Shown here: in pieces, positions 6,320 to 14,918 of the stretch
Layout: the number at the start of each line of letters is the position of its first letter
Position numbering within the stretch: the first letter of the stretch is position 1
IMG/VR virus record: IMGVR_UViG_3300006201_000477
Strand: one strand, 5' to 3'
Source of the DNA: a virus
Length of the DNA: 43,085 nucleotides
Made by a program: the position numbers and the translations under genes
Notes under the pieces: generated by a model
Told to the model about the DNA's origin: nothing
The model's database searches: none
The model's input: only the letters and a program-made list of their open reading frames with translations

Positions 6320-7795
6320 ATGAAAAATGGTGCCCTATACATTCGCGTCAGCACTCATATGCAGGATGAGCTTTCCCCTGACGCCCAAAAACGGCTCCTT
6401 CTTGATTACGCCAAAGCAAACCATATTATTGTATCTGAAGATTATATCTTTGAAGAAAAAGGGATTTCTGGGAAAAAAGCTGATAAGAGGCCGCAATTCC
6501 AGCAGATGATTGCTCTTGCCAAAACAAAGCCCACTCCCTTTGATATTATTTTAGTATGGAAATTCTCACGCTTTGCCAGGAACCAAGAAGAATCTATTGT
6601 ATATAAATCTTTGTTAAAGAAACAAGGCGTTGAAGTCCTAAGTGTAAGTGAGCCTGTAGCAGAAGGCCCTTTTGGGAGCTTAATTGAACGTATTATTGAA
6701 TGGATGGATGAATATTACTCTATCCGCCTCTCTGGCGAAGTTATGCGGGGCATGACAGAAAAAGCCCTGCGGGGTGGCTATCAGGCAAGCCCGCCACTTG
6801 GATACCGCATGGACATTCCCAAAAAACCACCTGTTATTGTACCTGAAGAAGCTGCTGCCATCCGTTATATTTTTGATGCCTATGCTAACCAGAACAAAGG
6901 AATCTTTGAGATAGCACGCGCTTTAAATGAAATGGGTTATGAAACGCAACGCCACAAACCATTTGAACGCCGTTCTGTAGAATACATACTTCAAAATCCT
7001 ATGTACTGTGGCTTGCTTAGATGGAATAGACATTGTAATGAGACAAATGAGATTAAAGATGAATCTGAATGGATTATCCGAAAAGGGGAACATCAGGCAA
7101 TTATTTCCGAGAATTTATTTAATAAAGCCCAAGAACGTTATTATACTGAATACAAGCCAAAAGGGGCAAGGCCTTCTAGCACTTATAAACATTGGCTATC
7201 TGGCCTTGTAAAATGCCCTGCCTGTGGCCGTACCATGATTGCTAAAGCAGTAAAATCTTCAGGAAGAATCCTATTCTATTTTACTTGTTATGGATATAGT
7301 AAAGGAAAATGTGCCGCCAAAACTTCAGTTGCTGCTACTAAGTTAGAGCCTGCTGTGCTCTCTTCTATCCAAGAAGCCTTCCAGGCAGAAACCTTTTCCT
7401 ATAGCAATCTTATCTCCCCTAGGCAGCCTGAATCTACTTCTGCAGAACAAAAACGTATTAACGATTTAATCCACAGAGTTACTTTTAAGGAACAGCGTGC
7501 CCGTGACGCATATATCAATGGTATTGATACTATGGAAGAATATAAAAAGAACAAGCTTCGGTTACAGGAAGAACGGCAGCGGCTAGAAGAAAAACTTGCC
7601 CTTCTCTCTCCTATTAAGCCGAATCTTTCCCCTTCAGAAGTAAAGCAGCTAATGCAAAAACGCTTGAAAAGTGTCTATGATGTGCTTCTATCTAATGCTG
7701 ATATTCCCACGAAAAACTCTACGCTCAAAAATGTAGTAGAAAAGATTATCTATAATAAAGAAACAGATACGGTAAAGCTCTATTACTATTCTTAA
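6320..7795 (+). CDS. Large serine recombinase (integrase)
   Basis: Resolvase catalytic N-terminus (ALYIRVSTHMQ). A recombinase domain follows, then a Cys zinc ribbon (CPACGR...CYGYSKGKC) and a C-terminal coiled coil. Confidence 0.95.
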   Translation: MKNGALYIRVSTHMQDELSPDAQKRLLLDYAKANHIIVSEDYIFEEKGISGKKADKRPQFQQMIALAKTKPTPFDIILVWKFSRFARNQEESIVYKSLLKKQGVEVLSVSEPVAEGPFGSLIERIIEWMDEYYSIRLSGEVMRGMTEKALRGGYQASPPLGYRMDIPKKPPVIVPEEAAAIRYIFDAYANQNKGIFEIARALNEMGYETQRHKPFERRSVEYILQNPMYCGLLRWNRHCNETNEIKDESEWIIRKGEHQAIISENLFNKAQERYYTEYKPKGARPSSTYKHWLSGLVKCPACGRTMIAKAVKSSGRILFYFTCYGYSKGKCAAKTSVAATKLEPAVLSSIQEAFQAETFSYSNLISPRQPESTSAEQKRINDLIHRVTFKEQRARDAYINGIDTMEEYKKNKLRLQEERQRLEEKLALLSPIKPNLSPSEVKQLMQKRLKSVYDVLLSNADIPTKNSTLKNVVEKIIYNKETDTVKLYYYS

Positions 7796-7872: not shown

Positions 7873-8763
7873 CTATATTGCTGCCCCTCTCTCATTTGTC
7901 TGAAGCATATGCCCATCTGCCGCGAACACATATAATTCTATTCCATGTACAGGACTTTCTACCGTTAATAATTCATTACAAGCCATTGCTCCAGATGATT
8001 TTAAGTAATACCTTTTTTCTTCGTCCTTTAGCCAGCCTGTCTGCATAATCCCGTTTGAATCAAAATGATACCACAGCCCATCTACTTCCTGCCAGCAGTT
8101 TTTGCATATCTCCCCATCTGCTTTCTTGTACTTCCAAATGTCCCCTTCCTGTATCCAGCCAGACTTATCCCCATAATCCACATAACATATGTTCCTATCT
8201 ACTCGCCCTGAAATCCCTGGGATACTTCCTGAATCCGTGTGCTGCCAAAGTGCCATATCCTCTCTATTACAAACCTTGTTATAGTACGCATACCATATAG
8301 CATACCCTTCTTCCCTTAACTGTGTCAAGTTAAAATATTGGTTTGCATAATCCTTATTGGTATACACCATTGGTATGTATCCTGCTCCCTTCACTTCTCT
8401 ACAAAAAGCAAGTGTCATATCCATAACCAACTGCCTTGTTACCTTGACACCTTTCCTTTCTGCATAACGAACAGAATCATATTCGAAGTCAAAAGCAATC
8501 GGATAAATAACCCTATATTTTTTTGCCTGGCTAATACAATACTGTGCTTCTCGTCTAGCCATTTCAACCGTATAAGCATAGGAGAACCAGTATAGCCCTA
8601 AAGGGATTCCCTTTTCCATACAGGCAGCAGCATAAGGAACTAGCTTCTCATCTATGTTCCCTGCCCCATATCCAGCACGAAGTATAATGAAGTCTACTGC
8701 TTGTCTTACTTTATCCCAATCTGTTACTTGATTATGGGTACTTAAGTCGATTCCTCTTTTCAC
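7873..8763 (-). CDS. Endolysin: GH25 muramidase with C-terminal cell-wall-binding repeats
   Basis: GH25-like N-terminus (GIDLSTHNQVTDWDKV...FIILRAGYG). The C-terminus has aromatic GW-rich repeats of the CW_binding_1 type. Confidence 0.9.
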   Translation of the reverse strand: MKRGIDLSTHNQVTDWDKVRQAVDFIILRAGYGAGNIDEKLVPYAAACMEKGIPLGLYWFSYAYTVEMARREAQYCISQAKKYRVIYPIAFDFEYDSVRYAERKGVKVTRQLVMDMTLAFCREVKGAGYIPMVYTNKDYANQYFNLTQLREEGYAIWYAYYNKVCNREDMALWQHTDSGSIPGISGRVDRNICYVDYGDKSGWIQEGDIWKYKKADGEICKNCWQEVDGLWYHFDSNGIMQTGWLKDEEKRYYLKSSGAMACNELLTVESPVHGIELYVFAADGHMLQTNERGAAI

Positions 8764-9946: not shown

Positions 9947-10540
9947 TTAACTATACATATCTCTACAAATAATATCCTTTATTTTTGTCACAGAAGAACT
10001 CACATAAATCCCTAATTCTCCTATTTTTCCCTTTAACACTACGTCATCCCCCTCATCACCAAGATAAATCCGTTTACAATTTACTGGCACAGTATCTTCT
10101 ATATACCCATAATAATAGCCATCTATCGAATCATACTCCATATATAACGTATCTGATCTGGTTCCTGTATCATATCGAAACCATGTTTCATCTTCTCCAT
10201 TGGAGCAAACATACATATCTACCGTAAACCCTTCCCCAAATGCTACATAGGTTCCATTTAACATTACCCGTATCTCTGCTCCTGCCAGCGTTTCTGCATT
10301 AGCAGCAGAATTTGAAATTGTCACATGTGCCCTATTATTCCAAACATCTCCACCAGCATAAGCAGGTCCACCACATACCGAATATAAAACTTCAATCGTT
10401 ACTCCCTCTGGCCATATCGTTTCCCATGCCCCATTTTTATAAACCTTCCCTTCTGTAATTTCCCTCCATGCCCCACTAGAATACCGTTTGATACTGCTTA
10501 CATCTTGCCATGCCCCATTGGTATATTTTTTTATACTCAT
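9947..10540 (-). CDS. Hypothetical tail-fibre-associated protein
   Basis: The N-terminus has a repeated Y-x-x-GAW-x-x-I motif. It follows fibre gene 2 after a 9-nt gap. Confidence 0.5.
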   Translation of the reverse strand: MSIKKYTNGAWQDVSSIKRYSSGAWREITEGKVYKNGAWETIWPEGVTIEVLYSVCGGPAYAGGDVWNNRAHVTISNSAANAETLAGAEIRVMLNGTYVAFGEGFTVDMYVCSNGEDETWFRYDTGTRSDTLYMEYDSIDGYYYGYIEDTVPVNCKRIYLGDEGDDVVLKGKIGELGIYVSSSVTKIKDIICRDMYS

Positions 10541-10549
10541 CTTCTCACC

Positions 10550-11029
10550 TCACCAAGCCCAAAGAACAGAACTACTAGAAGGCGTAGAAGATTGGATCGC
10601 CACTCCTTTGACACTCGTTGCCACAGGCACCCCATTGGAAAAATACACTGGCTGCATAGTAGAACCTGCATTGGCATTTAACTTATTGGCAGAACTGGCA
10701 GCTCCCCCTGCTGTAGCAGAACCTGCATAGGTATGGGTATGCCCCGTTTTTGCAAAAGCAGAAGCATGGTATCCATCTACAGTATCTGCATTACATTGAT
10801 CCTCCTCTGCTTTCGCATCCCATTTTCTCTTTTCTTCTTCGGTTACATGAACCTTCCCATCTTTCACATGTTTTTCTGTTTCTTCTACTTTCTTCTTTAA
10901 ATACACATCATTGTTTAGTAATGCCCCTTTTATCCCATTTTCTAGCTCTGCTGTTAAATACTCCTCTTCTTCTACCTGATGGATCTCCTGCTGAAACTCT
11001 GGTGGTTCTTTGATTGCTAAATTTCCCAT
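10550..11029 (-). CDS. Tail fibre protein (paralog 2)
   Basis: The N-terminal ~80 aa are alignable with 13867..14520 (M-x-NL-x-IK-x-P-x-EF...NND-x-YLK-x-K...EEEK-x-KWD). The C-terminus reads GHTHTYAGSATAGGAA. Confidence 0.7.
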   Translation of the reverse strand: MGNLAIKEPPEFQQEIHQVEEEEYLTAELENGIKGALLNNDVYLKKKVEETEKHVKDGKVHVTEEEKRKWDAKAEEDQCNADTVDGYHASAFAKTGHTHTYAGSATAGGAASSANKLNANAGSTMQPVYFSNGVPVATSVKGVAIQSSTPSSSSVLWAW

Positions 11030-11225: not shown

Positions 11226-11312
11226 CTATTTCCTATTCTCTAAACAGGAGATAAGCGCAAGCAAGAATAACCCGAATGTCAACATCAATGATATTGCTTC
11301 GTATGTACTCAT
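11226..11312 (-). CDS. 28-aa hydrophobic holin-like toxin (type I toxin candidate); not in the ORF track
   Basis: Translated by hand: MSTYEAISLMLTFGLFLLALISCLENRK. SD GGGGGGTGGTG lies just upstream. An extended -10 (TGtTATAAT, complement of about 11381..11389) is also upstream. Confidence 0.6.
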   Translation of the reverse strand: MSTYEAISLMLTFGLFLLALISCLENRK

Positions 11313-11418: not shown

Positions 11419-11811
11419 TTATAATACTTTCTTGGCTGCCCCATTTACTCCTACATACATACTACACCTCTTTACCTTCCCATTTACCCCTGCATAGGCT
11501 GCTTGGATTGCCCTGCTTACGCCACTCACTCCTACAAAGGAACCATGGTTGTCATTACAAGCTGTGTTGCAAGTCCCTGTACAGGTTCCTTTACATGTTT
11601 TTTCACATTCTCCCTCACAGGTATCCTCACAACTTCCTTCACAATCCCCTTCACAGCTTCCTTCACAGTCTCCCCCACAACTATCTGTACATTCCGTATA
11701 ACAAGTATTGTCGCAACCATCACAATACCCTACACAACCATCATCACAACCCCCACATCCTGTACACTCCCCACAAATATTTTCACAACTATCCCCACAT
11801 TCCCACGCCAT
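11419..11811 (-). CDS. CXXX-repeat cysteine-rich protein (candidate radical SAM substrate) with a non-Cys C-terminal tail
   Basis: 22 Cys in residues 5..85. Fourteen consecutive Cys sit at exact i+4 spacing (C33..C85). The C-terminus carries two Y-x-GVNG-x-x-K repeats. Confidence 0.8.
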   Translation of the reverse strand: MAWECGDSCENICGECTGCGGCDDGCVGYCDGCDNTCYTECTDSCGGDCEGSCEGDCEGSCEDTCEGECEKTCKGTCTGTCNTACNDNHGSFVGVSGVSRAIQAAYAGVNGKVKRCSMYVGVNGAAKKVL

Positions 11812-11817
11812 TCTTTA

Positions 11818-12135
11818 TCACCCCTGTTCTCTTTCCCGAAACGTTAGGTTCAAATATTTGTTTTTCTCGGAATATGTAGTATAAATAGAGGCCAATGTAG
11901 GAAATCCTTGGTATGTTTTTACTGCCACCCCATTTTGATCTACCACTGTGATTTCTTCCATTCCTATGGTTTTATAATAATGCACTGCCTCATCTCCTGT
12001 GATACTCCCTAATACAGACATATCCACTTGTACCACTAAGGATTTCACCACTTCCTGCCCTACCAAATCAATCCTCTCATCTACACGGTTTACATGCTGA
12101 ATTTCTGTCTTTCCATCTTGTAAAAGAATTTTCAT
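11818..12135 (-). CDS. Hypothetical protein between the maturase and the Cys-rich gene
   Basis: 105-aa ORF that starts directly after the rSAM stop. No motif recognised. Confidence 0.6.
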   Translation of the reverse strand: MKILLQDGKTEIQHVNRVDERIDLVGQEVVKSLVVQVDMSVLGSITGDEAVHYYKTIGMEEITVVDQNGVAVKTYQGFPTLASIYTTYSEKNKYLNLTFREREQG

Positions 12136-13476
12136 CTAGTTTCCTCCCCCTGCTAATTCTTGTAATTTCTCATATTCTTCTTTCCTCACAATTTCTTTTG
12201 CCTTCTCATACGGCAGAAAACAACCCATTCTTTCTGGCACTCCCTTCTTCCTATAATATGTGTTCCAAAAATATACATTCGCTAATGCCCTTGCCTTATG
12301 CATCCCACAAATAAAAGTTGCCCTTTTATCTGGTGTCCCAAACTTTTGATAATTATATGCGGTGCACCAAGCACAACCATCTGCAACAGGACACAAAAAA
12401 CATTCTTCTGTTGATTGGGATTTTCTTGTAATGCCTTTTAAACAAGAAAGACAATCCTTACACTGCTTCGAAGTACCTATTCCTTCCTCTAAACTTCCAA
12501 TTACCATTGGTTCCTGCTCTGTCCCTAGAGAAGTCTCCATAAAGCGGATACAAGGGTATAGGATTCCATCTGGATCACAAGCAAGCATCCTTCCATTCCC
12601 ACCACACCAGTTTTCATTCTCACTTTCTTGTAATGGTCCAAAACTATTCTCTAAGAAAAGGGAACAATAGGTGCTTTCTACTAAATCCTTTTCGATATAA
12701 TACTTGGCAAGTTTTTTCAACTGCTGGTAAAAGATAGCTGGGTGGACTTGGTTATCCCATACATCTTCAAACACACAGTTCGCATGAATATCCCGAAACC
12801 CTATTTTATGTAAATGGATCATGGATTCATATAAGAATCGAATATTTTCCGGTGAAATGGTAACTTTTGTCCCTGTATTCCCATACTTCCTTAAACTATG
12901 CTTTACCGCTTTTTCTACAAGATCATACGAATGGCTTCCATCTGGAAACCGCCGGCAAGCATCATGCAGCTCTTTATTTCCATCAATCGTAATATTTAAC
13001 GAAGTCCAGTTCCCATACTCTTTCAAGAACTCCTGAAATCGTTTATCAAAATATAAGATCCCATTGGTACAAATCGAAAACCGATGGAACTCTAACCACG
13101 GGTGATGGAAAAGGATCATTCTTTCTGTTACATAATCACAGATTCTTCGGATTAACTCGATCTCCAACAAAGGTTCCCCTCCAATAAACTCGATCACAAT
13201 TCCCCCTGTGTTATCTTGACTGATATACTGGTCCCCTCTTGCTGATAAAAGCTGATCCACAAACTGCTTTGCTGTCTCAAAGGACATGGATTTCTTTTTC
13301 TTATGGGTCTGGTAACAATAACTACACTTCAAATTACAATCATCTGTTACCTTAAAGGTAACGGTCCTTACTGCCCTCCATGTCCCTTCTGCTACCTGCC
13401 CCTTCTTTTCCTCTAAATCAGGAAATAGCTTTGCAATATAATCTGGATAATGAATTGGTCTGTACCTTTTTATCAT
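12136..13476 (-). CDS. Radical SAM / SPASM-domain peptide maturase (anSME-like)
   Basis: CX3CX2C at C47/C51/C54 (CNLKCSYC, nt 13315..13338). C-terminal SPASM-type Cys clusters: CGGNGRMLACDPDGILYPC and CKDCLSC...CFLCPVADGCAWC. Confidence 0.9.
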   Translation of the reverse strand: MIKRYRPIHYPDYIAKLFPDLEEKKGQVAEGTWRAVRTVTFKVTDDCNLKCSYCYQTHKKKKSMSFETAKQFVDQLLSARGDQYISQDNTGGIVIEFIGGEPLLEIELIRRICDYVTERMILFHHPWLEFHRFSICTNGILYFDKRFQEFLKEYGNWTSLNITIDGNKELHDACRRFPDGSHSYDLVEKAVKHSLRKYGNTGTKVTISPENIRFLYESMIHLHKIGFRDIHANCVFEDVWDNQVHPAIFYQQLKKLAKYYIEKDLVESTYCSLFLENSFGPLQESENENWCGGNGRMLACDPDGILYPCIRFMETSLGTEQEPMVIGSLEEGIGTSKQCKDCLSCLKGITRKSQSTEECFLCPVADGCAWCTAYNYQKFGTPDKRATFICGMHKARALANVYFWNTYYRKKGVPERMGCFLPYEKAKEIVRKEEYEKLQELAGGGN

Positions 13477-13814
13477 ACAGTTCCTCCCTCTTCTACAGGT
13501 ATTGCCTTTGGTATATCCAGAAATATCACACAGATACTACAGGTACTATATTCCAATGTCCACTGGAACTTCCTGCCTACATACTCCTGAAGGATACAGG
13601 TATTCACATATTCCACCATTTGTTGGAATTCCCGATAAGAATCATCATATAACTCCTGATAATAGGAAAGGATTTCTTTGTTATAAACCCCATTCGTATC
13701 TTTTAAAATACTTCGTAGAATCTCTTTCCTTCCCCGATATAAATAAGTAGTACGTTCTATCTTGGCAGCCAGTTCTTCTGTAATGGTTATGGTTACTTTC
13801 TTTTCTTGTGCCAT
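13473..13814 (-). CDS. Small accessory protein translationally coupled to the radical SAM gene
   Basis: ATG at 13814 has an upstream AGGA. The track start at 13835 is GTG. Its stop overlaps the rSAM start (ATGA). Confidence 0.6.
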   Translation of the reverse strand: MAQEKKVTITITEELAAKIERTTYLYRGRKEILRSILKDTNGVYNKEILSYYQELYDDSYREFQQMVEYVNTCILQEYVGRKFQWTLEYSTCSICVIFLDIPKAIPVEEGGTV

Positions 13815-13866
13815 GTCTTTTTCCTTTCTTTTCACTATGAATCTTTTTCCTTCCTAAAAAATCCTC

Positions 13867-14520
13867 TTAAGAATATAATAAATACACTTCCCCATTATTT
13901 AAAGAACCAGGGACAGACGTACCAAACTTCACATTCCTCAACTTGGAAGTGGCGTAATCTGTCCCTGGTTTTACTGAAACATTCTCTGGAAAAGTACCTG
14001 CTGTAATGGTGCTTGCACTTTGTGTATGCGCTGATGGGGGCATAGAGGAAGGTAAGGTAACATCCATTCTTACTTTTTTTGTCGCATTATCCCCATTTAT
14101 GGATACATTGTCCCCTGCTACAATCTCCACCTGGGCAGTCTTACTATTTGCCTCTACCAGCACATTCCCAACTTTCACCTTACTAAAAGCGTTCTGGTTT
14201 ACTTCTGCCCCTGCTGCCACATGGTCCAATTTCTGCTTATCCTCAGGAGACATCAATCCTGCTTTTGCTTGGGTTGCTTCCTGTGTGGCAGTAGTATCCC
14301 ACTTCTTTTTCTCCTCTTCTGATACATGTATCCCTGTATCTGTCGTATGCTGATTCGAATTAAGAACCATTTCTTCCAGCTTTTGCTTCAGGTATATATC
14401 ATTATTTAAAAGCTGCCCTTTGATCTGGTTCTCGATATTGTCTGTAATCAAATCGGACTGTTTTACTTGGTACACTTCTGTTGTAAACTCTGCTGGGCTT
14501 TTGATTGGTAAATTTGCCAT
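13867..14520 (-). CDS. Tail fibre protein (paralog 1)
   Basis: Its N-terminus is paralogous to 10550..11029. It follows the tail-collar-like gene. Confidence 0.7.
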   Translation of the reverse strand: MANLPIKSPAEFTTEVYQVKQSDLITDNIENQIKGQLLNNDIYLKQKLEEMVLNSNQHTTDTGIHVSEEEKKKWDTTATQEATQAKAGLMSPEDKQKLDHVAAGAEVNQNAFSKVKVGNVLVEANSKTAQVEIVAGDNVSINGDNATKKVRMDVTLPSSMPPSAHTQSASTITAGTFPENVSVKPGTDYATSKLRNVKFGTSVPGSLNNGEVYLLYS

Positions 14521-14537: not shown

Positions 14538-14918
14538 TTAAAAAATCTCCTGAATGGAAAAGTCAAAGAGCATATCATCATCTTTCCCTTTCTTAAGGAA
14601 CGTCCGATACATCACCAAATCCCCCTCTTCATCAAATAGCCCTACTTCGGAGATATATTTCTGGGCTAGTTCGGTTTTTCCTAAGCTGGACTTATATTCG
14701 CATGTGGTAGGGATTGGGTACCCATGGGAATCCACTTCCCTTCTTAACAACTCATTACGAAGAGATACTTCTTCCCCTGTTACTGGTAAGGGAGTGCCTG
14801 CCTCATCTACCCCTCCCTCTCCATAGGCTATATACTTAATTTTAGGCAGTACCATATCCCCTGCATGAGACTTGCACATCTTTTCCCTGCCTTTTTGTGT
14901 GATTACTGCATTTGCCAT
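14538..14918 (-). CDS. Tail fibre N-terminal / tail-collar-like protein
   Basis: 126 aa. The pattern ITQKGREK...IKYIAYGEGG...RNEL...VGLFDEEGDL resembles the phage tail-collar fibre domain. Confidence 0.55.
   Translation of the reverse strand: MANAVITQKGREKMCKSHAGDMVLPKIKYIAYGEGGVDEAGTPLPVTGEEVSLRNELLRREVDSHGYPIPTTCEYKSSLGKTELAQKYISEVGLFDEEGDLVMYRTFLKKGKDDDMLFDFSIQEIF

What the first reader, a model, noticed from the sequence alone, without database searches (positions are those of the whole stretch)
11554..11811. Substrate architecture: N-terminal CXXX core with no leader, C-terminal non-Cys tail, 12-nt DNA periodicity
Cys occupy positions 5, 9, 13, 16, 19, 22, 26, 30 and 33, then every fourth residue to 85. 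That gives 14 Cys in perfect register, in units such as CEGS, CEGD, CEDT, CEKT, CKGT and CTGT.

The Cys-rich core starts at residue 5, so there is no N-terminal leader. The only non-repeat part is the 45-aa C-terminus, with two Y-x-GVNG-x-x-K(R/K) repeats. This could act as a follower peptide for maturase recognition or as an anchor into a fibre assembly.

The 12-nt coding periodicity also generates three spurious long ORFs on the opposite strand and in the alternative frame in the track.
Basis: seen in the sequence. Interest (0 to 1): 0.7.

Follow-up and report, generated by a model that had tools for sequence, protein, structure and literature searches.

The report
Cysteine-repeat phage protein with enzyme partner
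A gut-bacterial phage encodes, among its tail-fibre genes, a small protein with a cysteine at every fourth residue next to a radical-SAM enzyme predicted to cross-link it; the pairing is catalogued but has never been studied experimentally, and its C-terminal tail looks like a reusable phage-tail module rather than an enzyme-recognition tag.

Summary
ORF 11419-11811 (minus strand, 130 aa) has 22 Cys in residues 5-85, 14 of them in strict CXXX register. No leader is possible, and the DNA has 12-nt periodicity with shadow ORFs. Two corrections apply: the tail contains one Cys (C116), and it has three 13-14-residue repeats, not two.

The gene belongs to a catalogued but uncharacterised system. 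The adjacent enzyme passes NCBIfam TIGR04115 (481 bits, cutoff 350), and the peptide passes TIGR04114 (22.3 bits, cutoff 20).

New context:
- The four-gene cassette sits in the tail-fibre module of a temperate contractile-tailed phage. At least 294 viral contigs carry related enzymes.
- Repeat number varies between lineages (11, 22, 25, 30 Cys), while the tail is conserved.
- The tail module also occurs on Cys-free proteins in phage tail modules.
- Related enzymes are paired with arrays that have neither leader nor tail.
- The enzyme has no room for a leader-recognition domain.

The "fibre anchor" reading is therefore favoured over "follower peptide", though the latter is not excluded. Thioether cross-linking is inferred from homology only (PapB, QhpD, CteB). 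Structure prediction of the peptide failed (pLDDT 34).

The parts
11419..11811 (-). CXXX-repeat protein gene (130 aa plus stop), predicted substrate
   Evidence: TIGR04114, 22.3 bits, cutoff 20. Frame under purifying selection. Called as 130 aa on 8 public contigs.
11557..11799 (-). Cys-rich core, residues 5-85. It has 22 Cys at spacing 3-4 and net charge -18. The strict CXXX register covers residues 33-85 (11557-11715).
   Evidence: TRF period-12/24/36 arrays at 11581-11682.
11422..11556 (-). C-terminal 45-aa basic tail (net charge +5). It holds three repeats: 11500-11541, 11461-11499 and 11422-11460.
   Evidence: The module also occurs on Cys-free proteins.
11818..11825 (-). Ribosome-binding site AGGGGTGA, overlapping the stop codon of the upstream gene, 6 nt before the ATG
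   Evidence: Read from the sequence.
11818..12135 (-). 105-aa gene of unknown function, directly upstream of the CXXX gene. Counterparts occur only in loci with this layout (L007, L103; L008 at 30% identity).
   Evidence: No Pfam, NCBIfam, PHROG or PDB match.
12136..13476 (-). Radical SAM/SPASM enzyme (446 aa). CX3CX2C lies at C47/C51/C54. SPASM Cys are 291, 309, 359, 362, 368, 371 and 390. There is no N-terminal RRE.
   Evidence: TIGR04115, 480.9 bits, cutoff 350. Pfam Radical_SAM. Invariant Cys. CteB alignment starts at query residue 35 and CteB residue 95.
13473..13835 (-). About 113-120-aa partner gene overlapping the enzyme start (probable start is the ATG at 13814). It lies directly upstream of the enzyme in 92 of 95 loci.
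   Evidence: AF2 model pLDDT 83 with beta-alpha-alpha-beta-beta topology. No PDB fold match. Weak TIGR04116 link.
13867..14520 (-). Tail fibre protein (217 aa) immediately upstream of the cassette
   Evidence: phrog_7389 tail fiber protein, E = 9.5e-13.
14538..14918 (-). Tail-collar fibre or baseplate wedge protein (126 aa)
   Evidence: phrog_1780, E = 5e-16.
10550..11029 (-). Second fibre-like gene (159 aa). It has the same N-terminus as the 217-aa fibre and lies downstream of the cassette.
11503..11879 (+). Shadow ORFs on the opposite strand (11503-11847, 11508-11879, 11549-11701), with 11532-11723 on the minus strand in another frame. All are artefacts of the codon periodicity.

Best explanation
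The ORF encodes the substrate of a phage-borne CXXX-repeat modification cassette. The gene order on the minus strand is the about 113-aa partner, the radical SAM/SPASM enzyme, the 105-aa protein, then the CXXX protein. The cassette is embedded at the distal end of the tail-fibre module of a temperate contractile-tailed phage of a gut Firmicute, probably a Lachnospiraceae.

Shown:
- family membership of the enzyme and the repeat;
- tight operon arrangement;
- constant position between baseplate/fibre genes and lysis genes;
- variable array length with a conserved tail;
- portability of the tail module;
- lack of a leader in the substrate and of an RRE in the enzyme.

Inferred:
- During late gene expression in the anaerobic host, the enzyme converts many of the 22 core cysteines into intramolecular thioether cross-links to nearby residues. 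This rests on analogy with its nearest characterised relatives, PapB, QhpD and CteB.
- That would turn the acidic array into a stiff rod resistant to reduction and to proteases.
- The basic 40-residue triple-repeat tail then docks or oligomerises this rod on the fibre or baseplate. In this view the tail is not a dedicated recognition tag for the enzyme.
- Substrate recognition is probably through the repeat itself, or through the small partner proteins.
For: Family membership:
- The enzyme scores 480.9 bits against TIGR04115 (cutoff 350). Its next best matches are thioether formers, all below their cutoffs: PapB 190, QhpD 118, SCIFF maturase 110.
- The closest solved relative is CteB (5WGG), E = 2e-25.
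- The radical SAM and 7-Cys SPASM motifs are conserved.

Co-occurrence and position:
- A CXXX ORF lies next to the enzyme in 93 of 95 loci. The partner gene lies directly upstream in 92 of 95.
- Baseplate genes lie upstream in 54 of 77 loci and never downstream. Endolysin lies downstream in 30 of 75 and never upstream.
- Neighbours with named PHROGs are all tail proteins.
- There is no terminator-like site inside the cassette.

Structural role:
- In six loci the CXXX array is fused to two ALK/LTK-type glycine-rich domains in an 810-830-aa protein.

Tail:
- The tail is conserved while the array length varies.
- An exhaustive search of 1.84 billion proteins finds the tail module on seven Cys-free proteins, at either end or internally. 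Two of these have readable contexts, and both lie in phage tail modules.
- The module is also present in non-CXXX genes downstream of the enzyme in L089 and L011.
- Related loci carry leaderless, tail-less 60-Cys arrays.

Recognition and export:
- The enzyme has only about 34 residues where CteB has about 94.
- The partner protein does not have an RRE fold.
- No protease or exporter gene lies in the cassette.
Against: - No chemistry was observed, so thioether formation, its extent and the acceptor atoms are all inferred.
- The strict register puts a Cys at i+4, so the PapB-type Cys-X3-Asp/Glu motif is absent. The common relatives have few Asp or Glu (17% of units, against 59% in this class), so the acceptor cannot be generally acidic.
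- No virion proteomics exists. The CXXX protein matches no known fibre family.
- Morons commonly sit in this same genomic slot, and a Hol-Tox moron lies right next to the gene.
- Tail conservation and the class-specific 105-aa gene fit a recognition role equally well.
- The enzymes of tail-bearing loci cluster weakly together, as co-evolution would also predict.
- The AF2 model of the protein is uninformative.
Confidence: 0.45

Rival explanations
1. The tail is a true follower peptide. It is bound by the enzyme, or by the class-specific 105-aa protein acting as an adaptor, and it directs modification of the leaderless core. Any fibre association is secondary or absent.
For: - The tail is far more conserved than the core across four lineages.
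- A 102-112-aa gene always accompanies tail-bearing substrates and sits next to them.
- The enzyme lacks a built-in RRE, so recognition in trans is plausible.
- Enzymes of tail-bearing loci group together in a neighbour-joining tree.
Against: - The same module occurs on proteins with no Cys array and on non-substrate neighbours.
- Related enzymes are paired with arrays that lack both a leader and the tail.
- Neither small protein resembles an RRE.
Confidence: 0.25
2. The product is a RiPP-like released molecule, such as a bacteriocin, a signal or a host-fitness factor. It would be carried as a moron and liberated at lysis, and would not be part of the particle.
For: - The enzyme belongs to the RiPP-maturase branch of SPASM enzymes.
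- The slot between fibre and lysis genes is a classic moron site.
- A Hol-Tox moron lies next door.
- One distant relative (L006) has a twin-arginine-like signal peptide on its CXXX protein.
Against: - The substrate has no leader, and the cassette has no protease or exporter.
- The gene is co-oriented and tightly packed with fibre genes, with no own promoter or terminator signal above background.
- Relatives have arrays of 60-100 Cys or fusions to 600-aa fibre-type domains, far beyond RiPP size.
Confidence: 0.12
3. The protein is a non-virion assembly factor. The modified array would act as a scaffold, ruler or chaperone for fibre assembly and would then be discarded.
For: - The gene lies in a tail-fibre module.
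- Small accessory genes beside fibre genes are often assembly chaperones (general phage knowledge).
- Array length varies between lineages, as a ruler might.
Against: - Fusion of arrays to receptor-binding-type glycine-rich domains in relatives argues for a permanent structural part.
- The heavy investment in covalent modification is hard to explain for a discarded factor.
- No evidence bears on this directly.
Confidence: 0.12
4. The Cys array acts through its free thiols, for example in metal or Fe-S binding or in redox buffering, in the manner of metallothioneins. The radical SAM enzyme would modify only a few sites, or another target.
For: - The protein has 22 Cys in 81 residues and a strongly acidic core (net charge -18).
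- Metal ions do stabilise some phage fibres (general knowledge, for example T4 gp37).
Against: - The enzyme and the CXXX array co-occur almost universally, and NCBIfam curators defined the pair as enzyme and target.
- The regular CXXX spacing differs from the CxC/CxxC clusters of metallothioneins.
Confidence: 0.06

Closest known systems
NCBIfam/TIGRFAMs CXXX-repeat peptide modification system: TIGR04115 (maturase), TIGR04114 (Cys-rich repeat), TIGR04116 (associated protein)
   Same: The enzyme and the repeat both score above the curated cutoffs. The genes are adjacent. Cys occurs every fourth residue.
   Different: The system is defined only in silico, and no experimental paper was found in the searchable library.

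This window shows a minority layout. The substrate lies downstream of the enzyme, is leaderless, has an acidic core and carries a C-terminal triple-repeat tail. The common layout has a roughly 105-aa N-terminal domain and lies upstream.

The TIGR04116 link to the partner gene is only marginal.
PapB/PapA (freyrasin), ranthipeptide RiPP
   Same: This is the best-scoring characterised relative of the enzyme (190 bits). PapB makes multiple Cys-to-Asp/Glu thioethers in repeated motifs and tolerates Cys-Xn-Asp with n = 0-6 (PMC9413430). The core here is rich in Asp and Glu.
   Different: The score is below the PapB cutoff of 340. The substrate has no leader and the enzyme has no RRE. Position i+4 is always Cys rather than Asp or Glu. 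The gene context is a phage tail module, not a RiPP gene cluster.
QhpD/QhpC (quinohemoprotein amine dehydrogenase gamma subunit)
   Same: A radical SAM/SPASM enzyme installs several intra-protein Cys-Asp/Glu thioethers in a protein that remains a structural subunit rather than becoming a released peptide (PMC11002830). This is the closest conceptual precedent.
   Different: The score is 118 bits against a cutoff of 453. The substrate is unrelated. QhpC has three cross-links with long spans, not a periodic array. It is a periplasmic enzyme subunit, not a phage component.
CteB / SCIFF (six cysteines in forty-five) system
   Same: CteB is the closest solved structure (5WGG, E = 2e-25). It is a thioether-forming SPASM maturase acting on a Cys-rich peptide.
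   Different: CteB has an N-terminal RRE-containing region of about 94 residues, which is absent here. SCIFF peptides have a leader and only six Cys. The TIGR03974 score is 110 bits against a cutoff of 425.
Repeat shafts of phage and viral fibres (collagen-like GXY repeats, triple beta-spiral and beta-helix repeats)
   Same: Short-period repeats of variable copy number lie inside fibre-module proteins. In six loci the array lies N-terminal to two ALK/LTK glycine-rich domains.
   Different: The period is 4 with an invariant Cys, and a dedicated radical SAM enzyme accompanies it. No structural evidence exists that the array forms a shaft.

Membership tests
CXXX-repeat peptide modification system (TIGR04114/04115/04116) | Radical SAM enzyme scoring above the TIGR04115 cutoff | tested here: met
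   480.9 bits against a cutoff of 350, covering profile positions 2-359 of 359.
CXXX-repeat peptide modification system (TIGR04114/04115/04116) | Neighbouring protein with tandem Cys-every-fourth repeats (TIGR04114) | tested here: met
   22.3 bits against a cutoff of 20, which is borderline. Directly, 14 Cys lie in strict register, reached by 0 of 100,000 shuffles. The gene lies 324 nt downstream on the same strand.
CXXX-repeat peptide modification system (TIGR04114/04115/04116) | Third associated protein (TIGR04116) | tested here: inconclusive
   The window's partner protein gives no hit. One of 30 family members hits TIGR04116 at E = 0.005. The 100-aa family gives no hit.
CXXX-repeat peptide modification system (TIGR04114/04115/04116) | CX3CX2C radical SAM motif plus a full SPASM auxiliary-cluster Cys set | tested here: met
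   C47/C51/C54, and C291, C309, C359, C362, C368, C371 and C390. All are invariant in relatives 50% identical.
Ranthipeptide RiPP (PapB/freyrasin type) | Maturase above the PapB family cutoff | tested here: not met
   189.7 bits against a cutoff of 340.
Ranthipeptide RiPP (PapB/freyrasin type) | N-terminal leader peptide on the precursor | tested here: not met
   The first Cys is at residue 5, and in-frame stops lie 2 and 3 codons upstream of the ATG.
Ranthipeptide RiPP (PapB/freyrasin type) | RRE domain in the maturase or as a separate protein | tested here: not met
   The enzyme has about 34 residues before the core, against about 94 in CteB. The partner's model has beta-alpha-alpha-beta-beta topology and no PDB match below E = 0.3. 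Profile searches of both small proteins against PDB sequences are negative.
Ranthipeptide RiPP (PapB/freyrasin type) | Cys-X3-Asp/Glu acceptor motifs | tested here: not met
   In the register region i+4 is always Cys. Asp or Glu occur at +1 to +3 in 59% of units in this class, but in only 17% of units in the common class.
Ranthipeptide RiPP (PapB/freyrasin type) | S-C(beta/gamma) thioether cross-links in the product | not testable with these tools
   This needs mass spectrometry or NMR of the modified protein.
RiPP with C-terminal follower peptide | A conserved non-core C-terminal segment specific to the substrates | tested here: inconclusive
   The tail is conserved but not specific to substrates. 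The module occurs on seven Cys-free proteins and on two non-substrate neighbours. Related arrays lack it altogether.
Phage tail-fibre structural component | Gene lies within the tail-fibre module and is co-oriented with it | tested here: met
Phage tail-fibre structural component | Sequence or fold homology to a known fibre family | tested here: not met
   The CXXX protein has no Pfam or PHROG hit, and its AF2 model is unusable. Only relatives fused to ALK_LTK_GRD domains give a link.
Phage tail-fibre structural component | Presence in purified virions | not testable with these tools
   The phages database holds no cultured phage with this cassette. The only close enzyme hits there are two unannotated faecal contigs.

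The most novel reading that the evidence does not exclude
Phages of anaerobic gut Firmicutes use a radical SAM enzyme to staple cysteine arrays of 11 to about 100 Cys with thioether bonds inside proteins that become part of the tail fibre. This would be RiPP-type chemistry used to build a virion structure, giving a redox-proof substitute for disulfides. In this window the array would be delivered as a separate leaderless protein and plugged into the fibre through a portable triple-repeat docking module.
Probability: 0.35. Interest if true: 0.8.

Novelty: new variant of a known kind. Interest (0 to 1): 0.6.

Why it matters
If the inferred chemistry and location hold, this would be the first case I am aware of, from the literature searchable here, of radical-SAM post-translational cross-linking of a phage structural protein.

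It would also give a function to a widespread system: at least 294 viral contigs carry related enzymes, yet the system is uncharacterised.

The enzyme appears to work without a leader and without an RRE, on simple four-residue repeats. That would make it attractive for enzymatic peptide and protein stapling.

The portable 40-residue triple-repeat module could be a new attachment element of phage tails.

Tried and rejected
1. I suspected that the tail resembles the N-terminal "Y-x-NGAW" repeats of the window's 197-aa ORF (9947-10540). An HMM of the tail module does not detect them (E = 3), so I dropped this.

2. I tested whether the window's 105-aa protein is homologous to the roughly 100-aa gene of the common loci. 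The HMM gives no hit, and hhalign gives 5% probability over 23 N-terminal columns. Homology is not established; the two are equivalent in position only.

3. I tested whether the partner protein is an RRE supplied in trans. The model is confident (pLDDT 83) but has the wrong topology and no PDB match. Its only fold matches are three uncharacterised gut-virome proteins.

4. I suspected that gene callers miss the CXXX gene or call a shadow frame, because the exact protein is absent from the 15-billion-protein collection. This is rejected: it is called as 130 aa in the correct frame on all 8 contigs inspected. Its absence from the collection remains unexplained.

5. I considered stop-codon recoding as the reason for the split CXXX genes in the common loci. 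This is rejected: there is a double stop TAA TGA followed by the RBS GAGGAGG, so these are two genes.

6. AF2 prediction of the CXXX protein gave pLDDT 34, so no fold search was attempted.

7. The word-indexed homolog search with the full protein returned only one hit, so the enzyme was used as the anchor instead.

8. The enzyme tree did not discriminate follower from anchor.

9. Seven literature searches found no description of this system beyond family names. The founding TIGRFAMs paper (Haft and Basu 2011, recalled from memory) is not held in the library.

Full report
**Observation**

The finding's coordinates (11554-11811) cover residues 1-86 of a minus-strand ORF, 11419..11811, which encodes 130 aa.
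- Cys lie at 5, 9, 13, 16, 19, 22, 26, 30 and 33, then at every fourth residue to 85. That is 22 Cys in the core, 14 of them in strict register.
- Shuffling the same residues 100,000 times never gives a run longer than 6.
- The coding DNA shows autocorrelation of 0.50, 0.52 and 0.48 at lags 12, 24 and 36, against about 0.28 elsewhere. TRF reports period-12/24/36 arrays at 11581-11682.
- No leader is possible. The ATG at 11811 is preceded in frame by AGA, TAA and TGA, the last being the stop of the upstream gene. An AGGGGTGA ribosome-binding site precedes it.
- The shadow ORFs are real as ORFs: 114, 123 and 50 aa on the plus strand and 63 aa in another minus-strand frame. They arise because four of the five alternative frames have 0-1 stops where 4.4 are expected.

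The Cys frame is the one under selection.
- Against the relative L007, 21 of 29 nucleotide differences fall at codon position 3. Codon differences are 18 synonymous to 6 non-synonymous in this frame, and mostly non-synonymous in the others.
- Eight public contigs differ by 0 or 3 nucleotides, all synonymous.

Two corrections apply.
- The tail has one Cys (C116), which is Thr in L008.
- The tail contains three repeats of 14, 13 and 13 residues, not two.

**What it is**

The upstream 446-aa protein scores 480.9 bits against NCBIfam TIGR04115, "radical SAM peptide maturase, CXXX-repeat target family" (cutoff 350). The ORF itself scores 22.3 bits against TIGR04114, "Cys-rich repeat-containing protein" (cutoff 20).

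The enzyme has the CX3CX2C motif (C47/C51/C54) and seven SPASM cysteines. All of these are invariant in relatives 50% identical.

Its next-best family matches are all below cutoff, and they are thioether-forming maturases: PapB 190 bits, QhpD 118 and SCIFF maturase 110. The closest solved structure is CteB, 5WGG.

So the pair belongs to a catalogued system. I found no experimental description of it in seven full-text searches.

**Context**

The window is a temperate contractile-tailed phage or prophage. It encodes portal, major head, sheath, tape measure, sheath initiator, baseplate, serine integrase and a GH25 endolysin.

The minus-strand gene order is:
1. Mu gp48-like baseplate protein
2. 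tail-collar protein
3. 217-aa tail fibre
4. about 113-aa partner gene
5. radical SAM enzyme
6. 105-aa gene
7. CXXX gene
8. a 28-aa Hol-Tox ORF with its own terminator
9. a second fibre paralogue (159 aa)
10. 197-aa and 149-aa genes
11. lysis genes

No terminator-like site lies inside the cassette.

Using the enzyme as an anchor, 294 viral contigs and several Lachnospiraceae, Blautia and Eubacteriaceae genomes encode relatives. The closest, at 88% identity, is a mouse-gut Lachnospiraceae MAG.

Across the 95 fetched loci:
- A CXXX-array ORF lies beside the enzyme in 93. The two exceptions are short fragments.
- The partner gene lies directly upstream of the enzyme in 92.
- Baseplate genes lie upstream in 54 of 77 loci and never downstream.
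- Endolysin lies downstream in 30 of 75 loci and never upstream.
- Upstream neighbours that hit named PHROGs are all tail proteins.

**Architectures**

Three substrate layouts occur.
- Class A is the most common. A protein with a roughly 105-aa N-terminal domain and a short array is followed by a second gene. A double stop and an RBS separate the two. The second gene is a leaderless array of up to 60 Cys with only a 9-14-residue C-terminal end. Both lie upstream of the enzyme.
- Class B is this window's layout. The array is leaderless and acidic, a 45-48-residue tail follows it, and the gene lies downstream of the enzyme after a 102-112-aa gene. I found it in four lineages: the window (22 Cys), L007 (25), L103/P0001 (11; enzyme 63% identical) and L008 (30; enzyme 52% identical).
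- Class C has the array at the N-terminus of an 810-830-aa protein with two ALK/LTK glycine-rich domains (PF12810, E = 7e-99).

Class B units are acidic: 59% contain Asp or Glu, against 17% in class A. In the window the core has net charge -18 and the tail +5.

**The tail**

An exhaustive HMMER search with the 45-residue tail against 1.84 billion representative proteins returned nine hits.
- One is a CXXX protein (P0001).
- One is an unrelated lectin-like repeat protein (P0008).
- Seven carry the same triple [YF]-[VI]-G-[VI]-N-G-x-[AS]-[RK]-[KR]-[VI] module with no Cys array. The module is C-terminal in P0007, P0009, P0010 and P0011, N-terminal in P0012 and P0013, and internal in P0014.

Contexts can be read for two of these seven, and both are phage tail modules. 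P0012 follows a phrog_1887 tail protein (E = 2e-37) and a minor tail protein. P0007 lies beside another phrog_1887 relative.

A module HMM also finds the module in non-CXXX genes just downstream of the enzyme, in L089 (N-terminal) and L011.

The tail is therefore a portable phage-tail module and is not specific to substrates.

It does not exclude a follower role. The tail is strongly conserved, it always comes with its own small neighbouring gene, and the class B enzymes cluster weakly together.

**Recognition machinery**

The enzyme aligns to CteB from its residue 35 to CteB residue 95. It therefore lacks the N-terminal RRE-containing region.

The partner protein gives a confident model (pLDDT 83, pTM 0.69) with a three-stranded sheet and a long helical hairpin. 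It has no PDB fold match better than E = 0.3, and only three uncharacterised gut-phage proteins match it in BFVD.

One of 30 family members touches TIGR04116 ("CXXX repeat peptide modification system protein") at E = 0.005, so that membership is inconclusive.

The 105-aa protein has no detectable relatives outside class B. It matches no Pfam, NCBIfam, PHROG or PDB entry.

**Mechanism**

The shown facts are listed above. The inferred steps are these.
- The enzyme makes thioether links from the array's cysteines to nearby residues. The acceptor is unknown. PapB's Cys-X3-Asp/Glu motif is not present, because i+4 is always Cys. PapB does tolerate Cys-Xn-Asp with n = 0-6 (PMC9413430), and QhpD cross-links a protein subunit (PMC11002830).
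- The product would be a stiff rod insensitive to reduction.
- The rod would be attached to the fibre through the tail module.

An anaerobic host suits an oxygen-sensitive enzyme, and disulfides would be unreliable in a reducing gut. That is a rationale, not evidence. The suggested structure prediction of the peptide was uninformative (pLDDT 34).

**Verdict**

The object is a minority architectural variant of a catalogued but experimentally uncharacterised system.

Two results are new here. First, the cassette is consistently embedded in phage tail-fibre modules. Second, the tail is portable.

Whether the modified protein is a virion component is the key open question.

Noticed in passing
window 11226-11312 (minus strand): A 28-aa hydrophobic ORF (MSTYEAISLMLTFGLFLLALISCLENRK) lies in the gap after the CXXX gene. 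It has a strong RBS, and terminator-like hairpins follow it (11208-11190, 11160-11144). It matches Pfam Hol_Tox PF16935 (E = 1.4e-11), so it is a small toxin-like moron inserted between fibre genes.
   Followed up: yes
window 13867-14520 and 10550-11029 (minus strand): Two fibre genes (217 aa and 159 aa) share nearly the same first 50 residues or so. The radical SAM cassette and the Hol-Tox ORF sit between these paralogues, which suggests insertion into, or duplication of, a fibre cassette.
   Followed up: partly
window 9947-10540 (minus strand): The 197-aa ORF begins with three tandem repeats of about 14 residues of the form K-x-Y-x-N-G-A-W-x-x-[VI]. They look superficially like the CXXX tail repeats, but the tail-module HMM does not detect them (E = 3).
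   Followed up: partly
L010 6322-6852 and 6862-7659 (and about 26 similar loci): The common loci carry two consecutive in-frame CXXX genes. They are separated by TAA TGA and the RBS GAGGAGG, so these are two substrates rather than a recoded stop. The second is a leaderless 60-Cys array.
   Followed up: yes
L038 4785-7214; also L048, L062, L093-L095: The CXXX array is fused to two ALK/LTK-type glycine-rich domains (PF12810) in proteins of 810-830 aa. These proteins end in a single Y-V-K-x-N-G-x-W-x-x-V-like motif.
   Followed up: partly
L006 2222-2746 (MT837480, human faecal phage contig): A distant relative's CXXX protein starts with a twin-arginine-like signal sequence (MNNKIQSRREFFKNAAKSVLPILG...). 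This hints that some arrays are exported after folding or modification.
   Followed up: no
window 13473-13835 (minus strand): The mechanical ORF starts at the GTG at 13835. Public gene calls (112-113 aa), alignment conservation and the disordered first 8 residues of the model all point to the ATG at 13814 as the real start. The stop overlaps the enzyme's start, which suggests translational coupling.
   Followed up: partly
window 11419-11811: The exact 130-aa sequence is absent from the 15-billion-protein collection. Its three cassette neighbours are present, and the gene is called correctly on 8 public contigs. The reason is unexplained; a low-complexity filter is possible.
   Followed up: partly
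window 6320-7795 (+) and 7873-8763 (-): The window also encodes a large serine integrase, and a GH25 endolysin with choline-binding repeats. The element is therefore a temperate phage of a Gram-positive host.
   Followed up: partly
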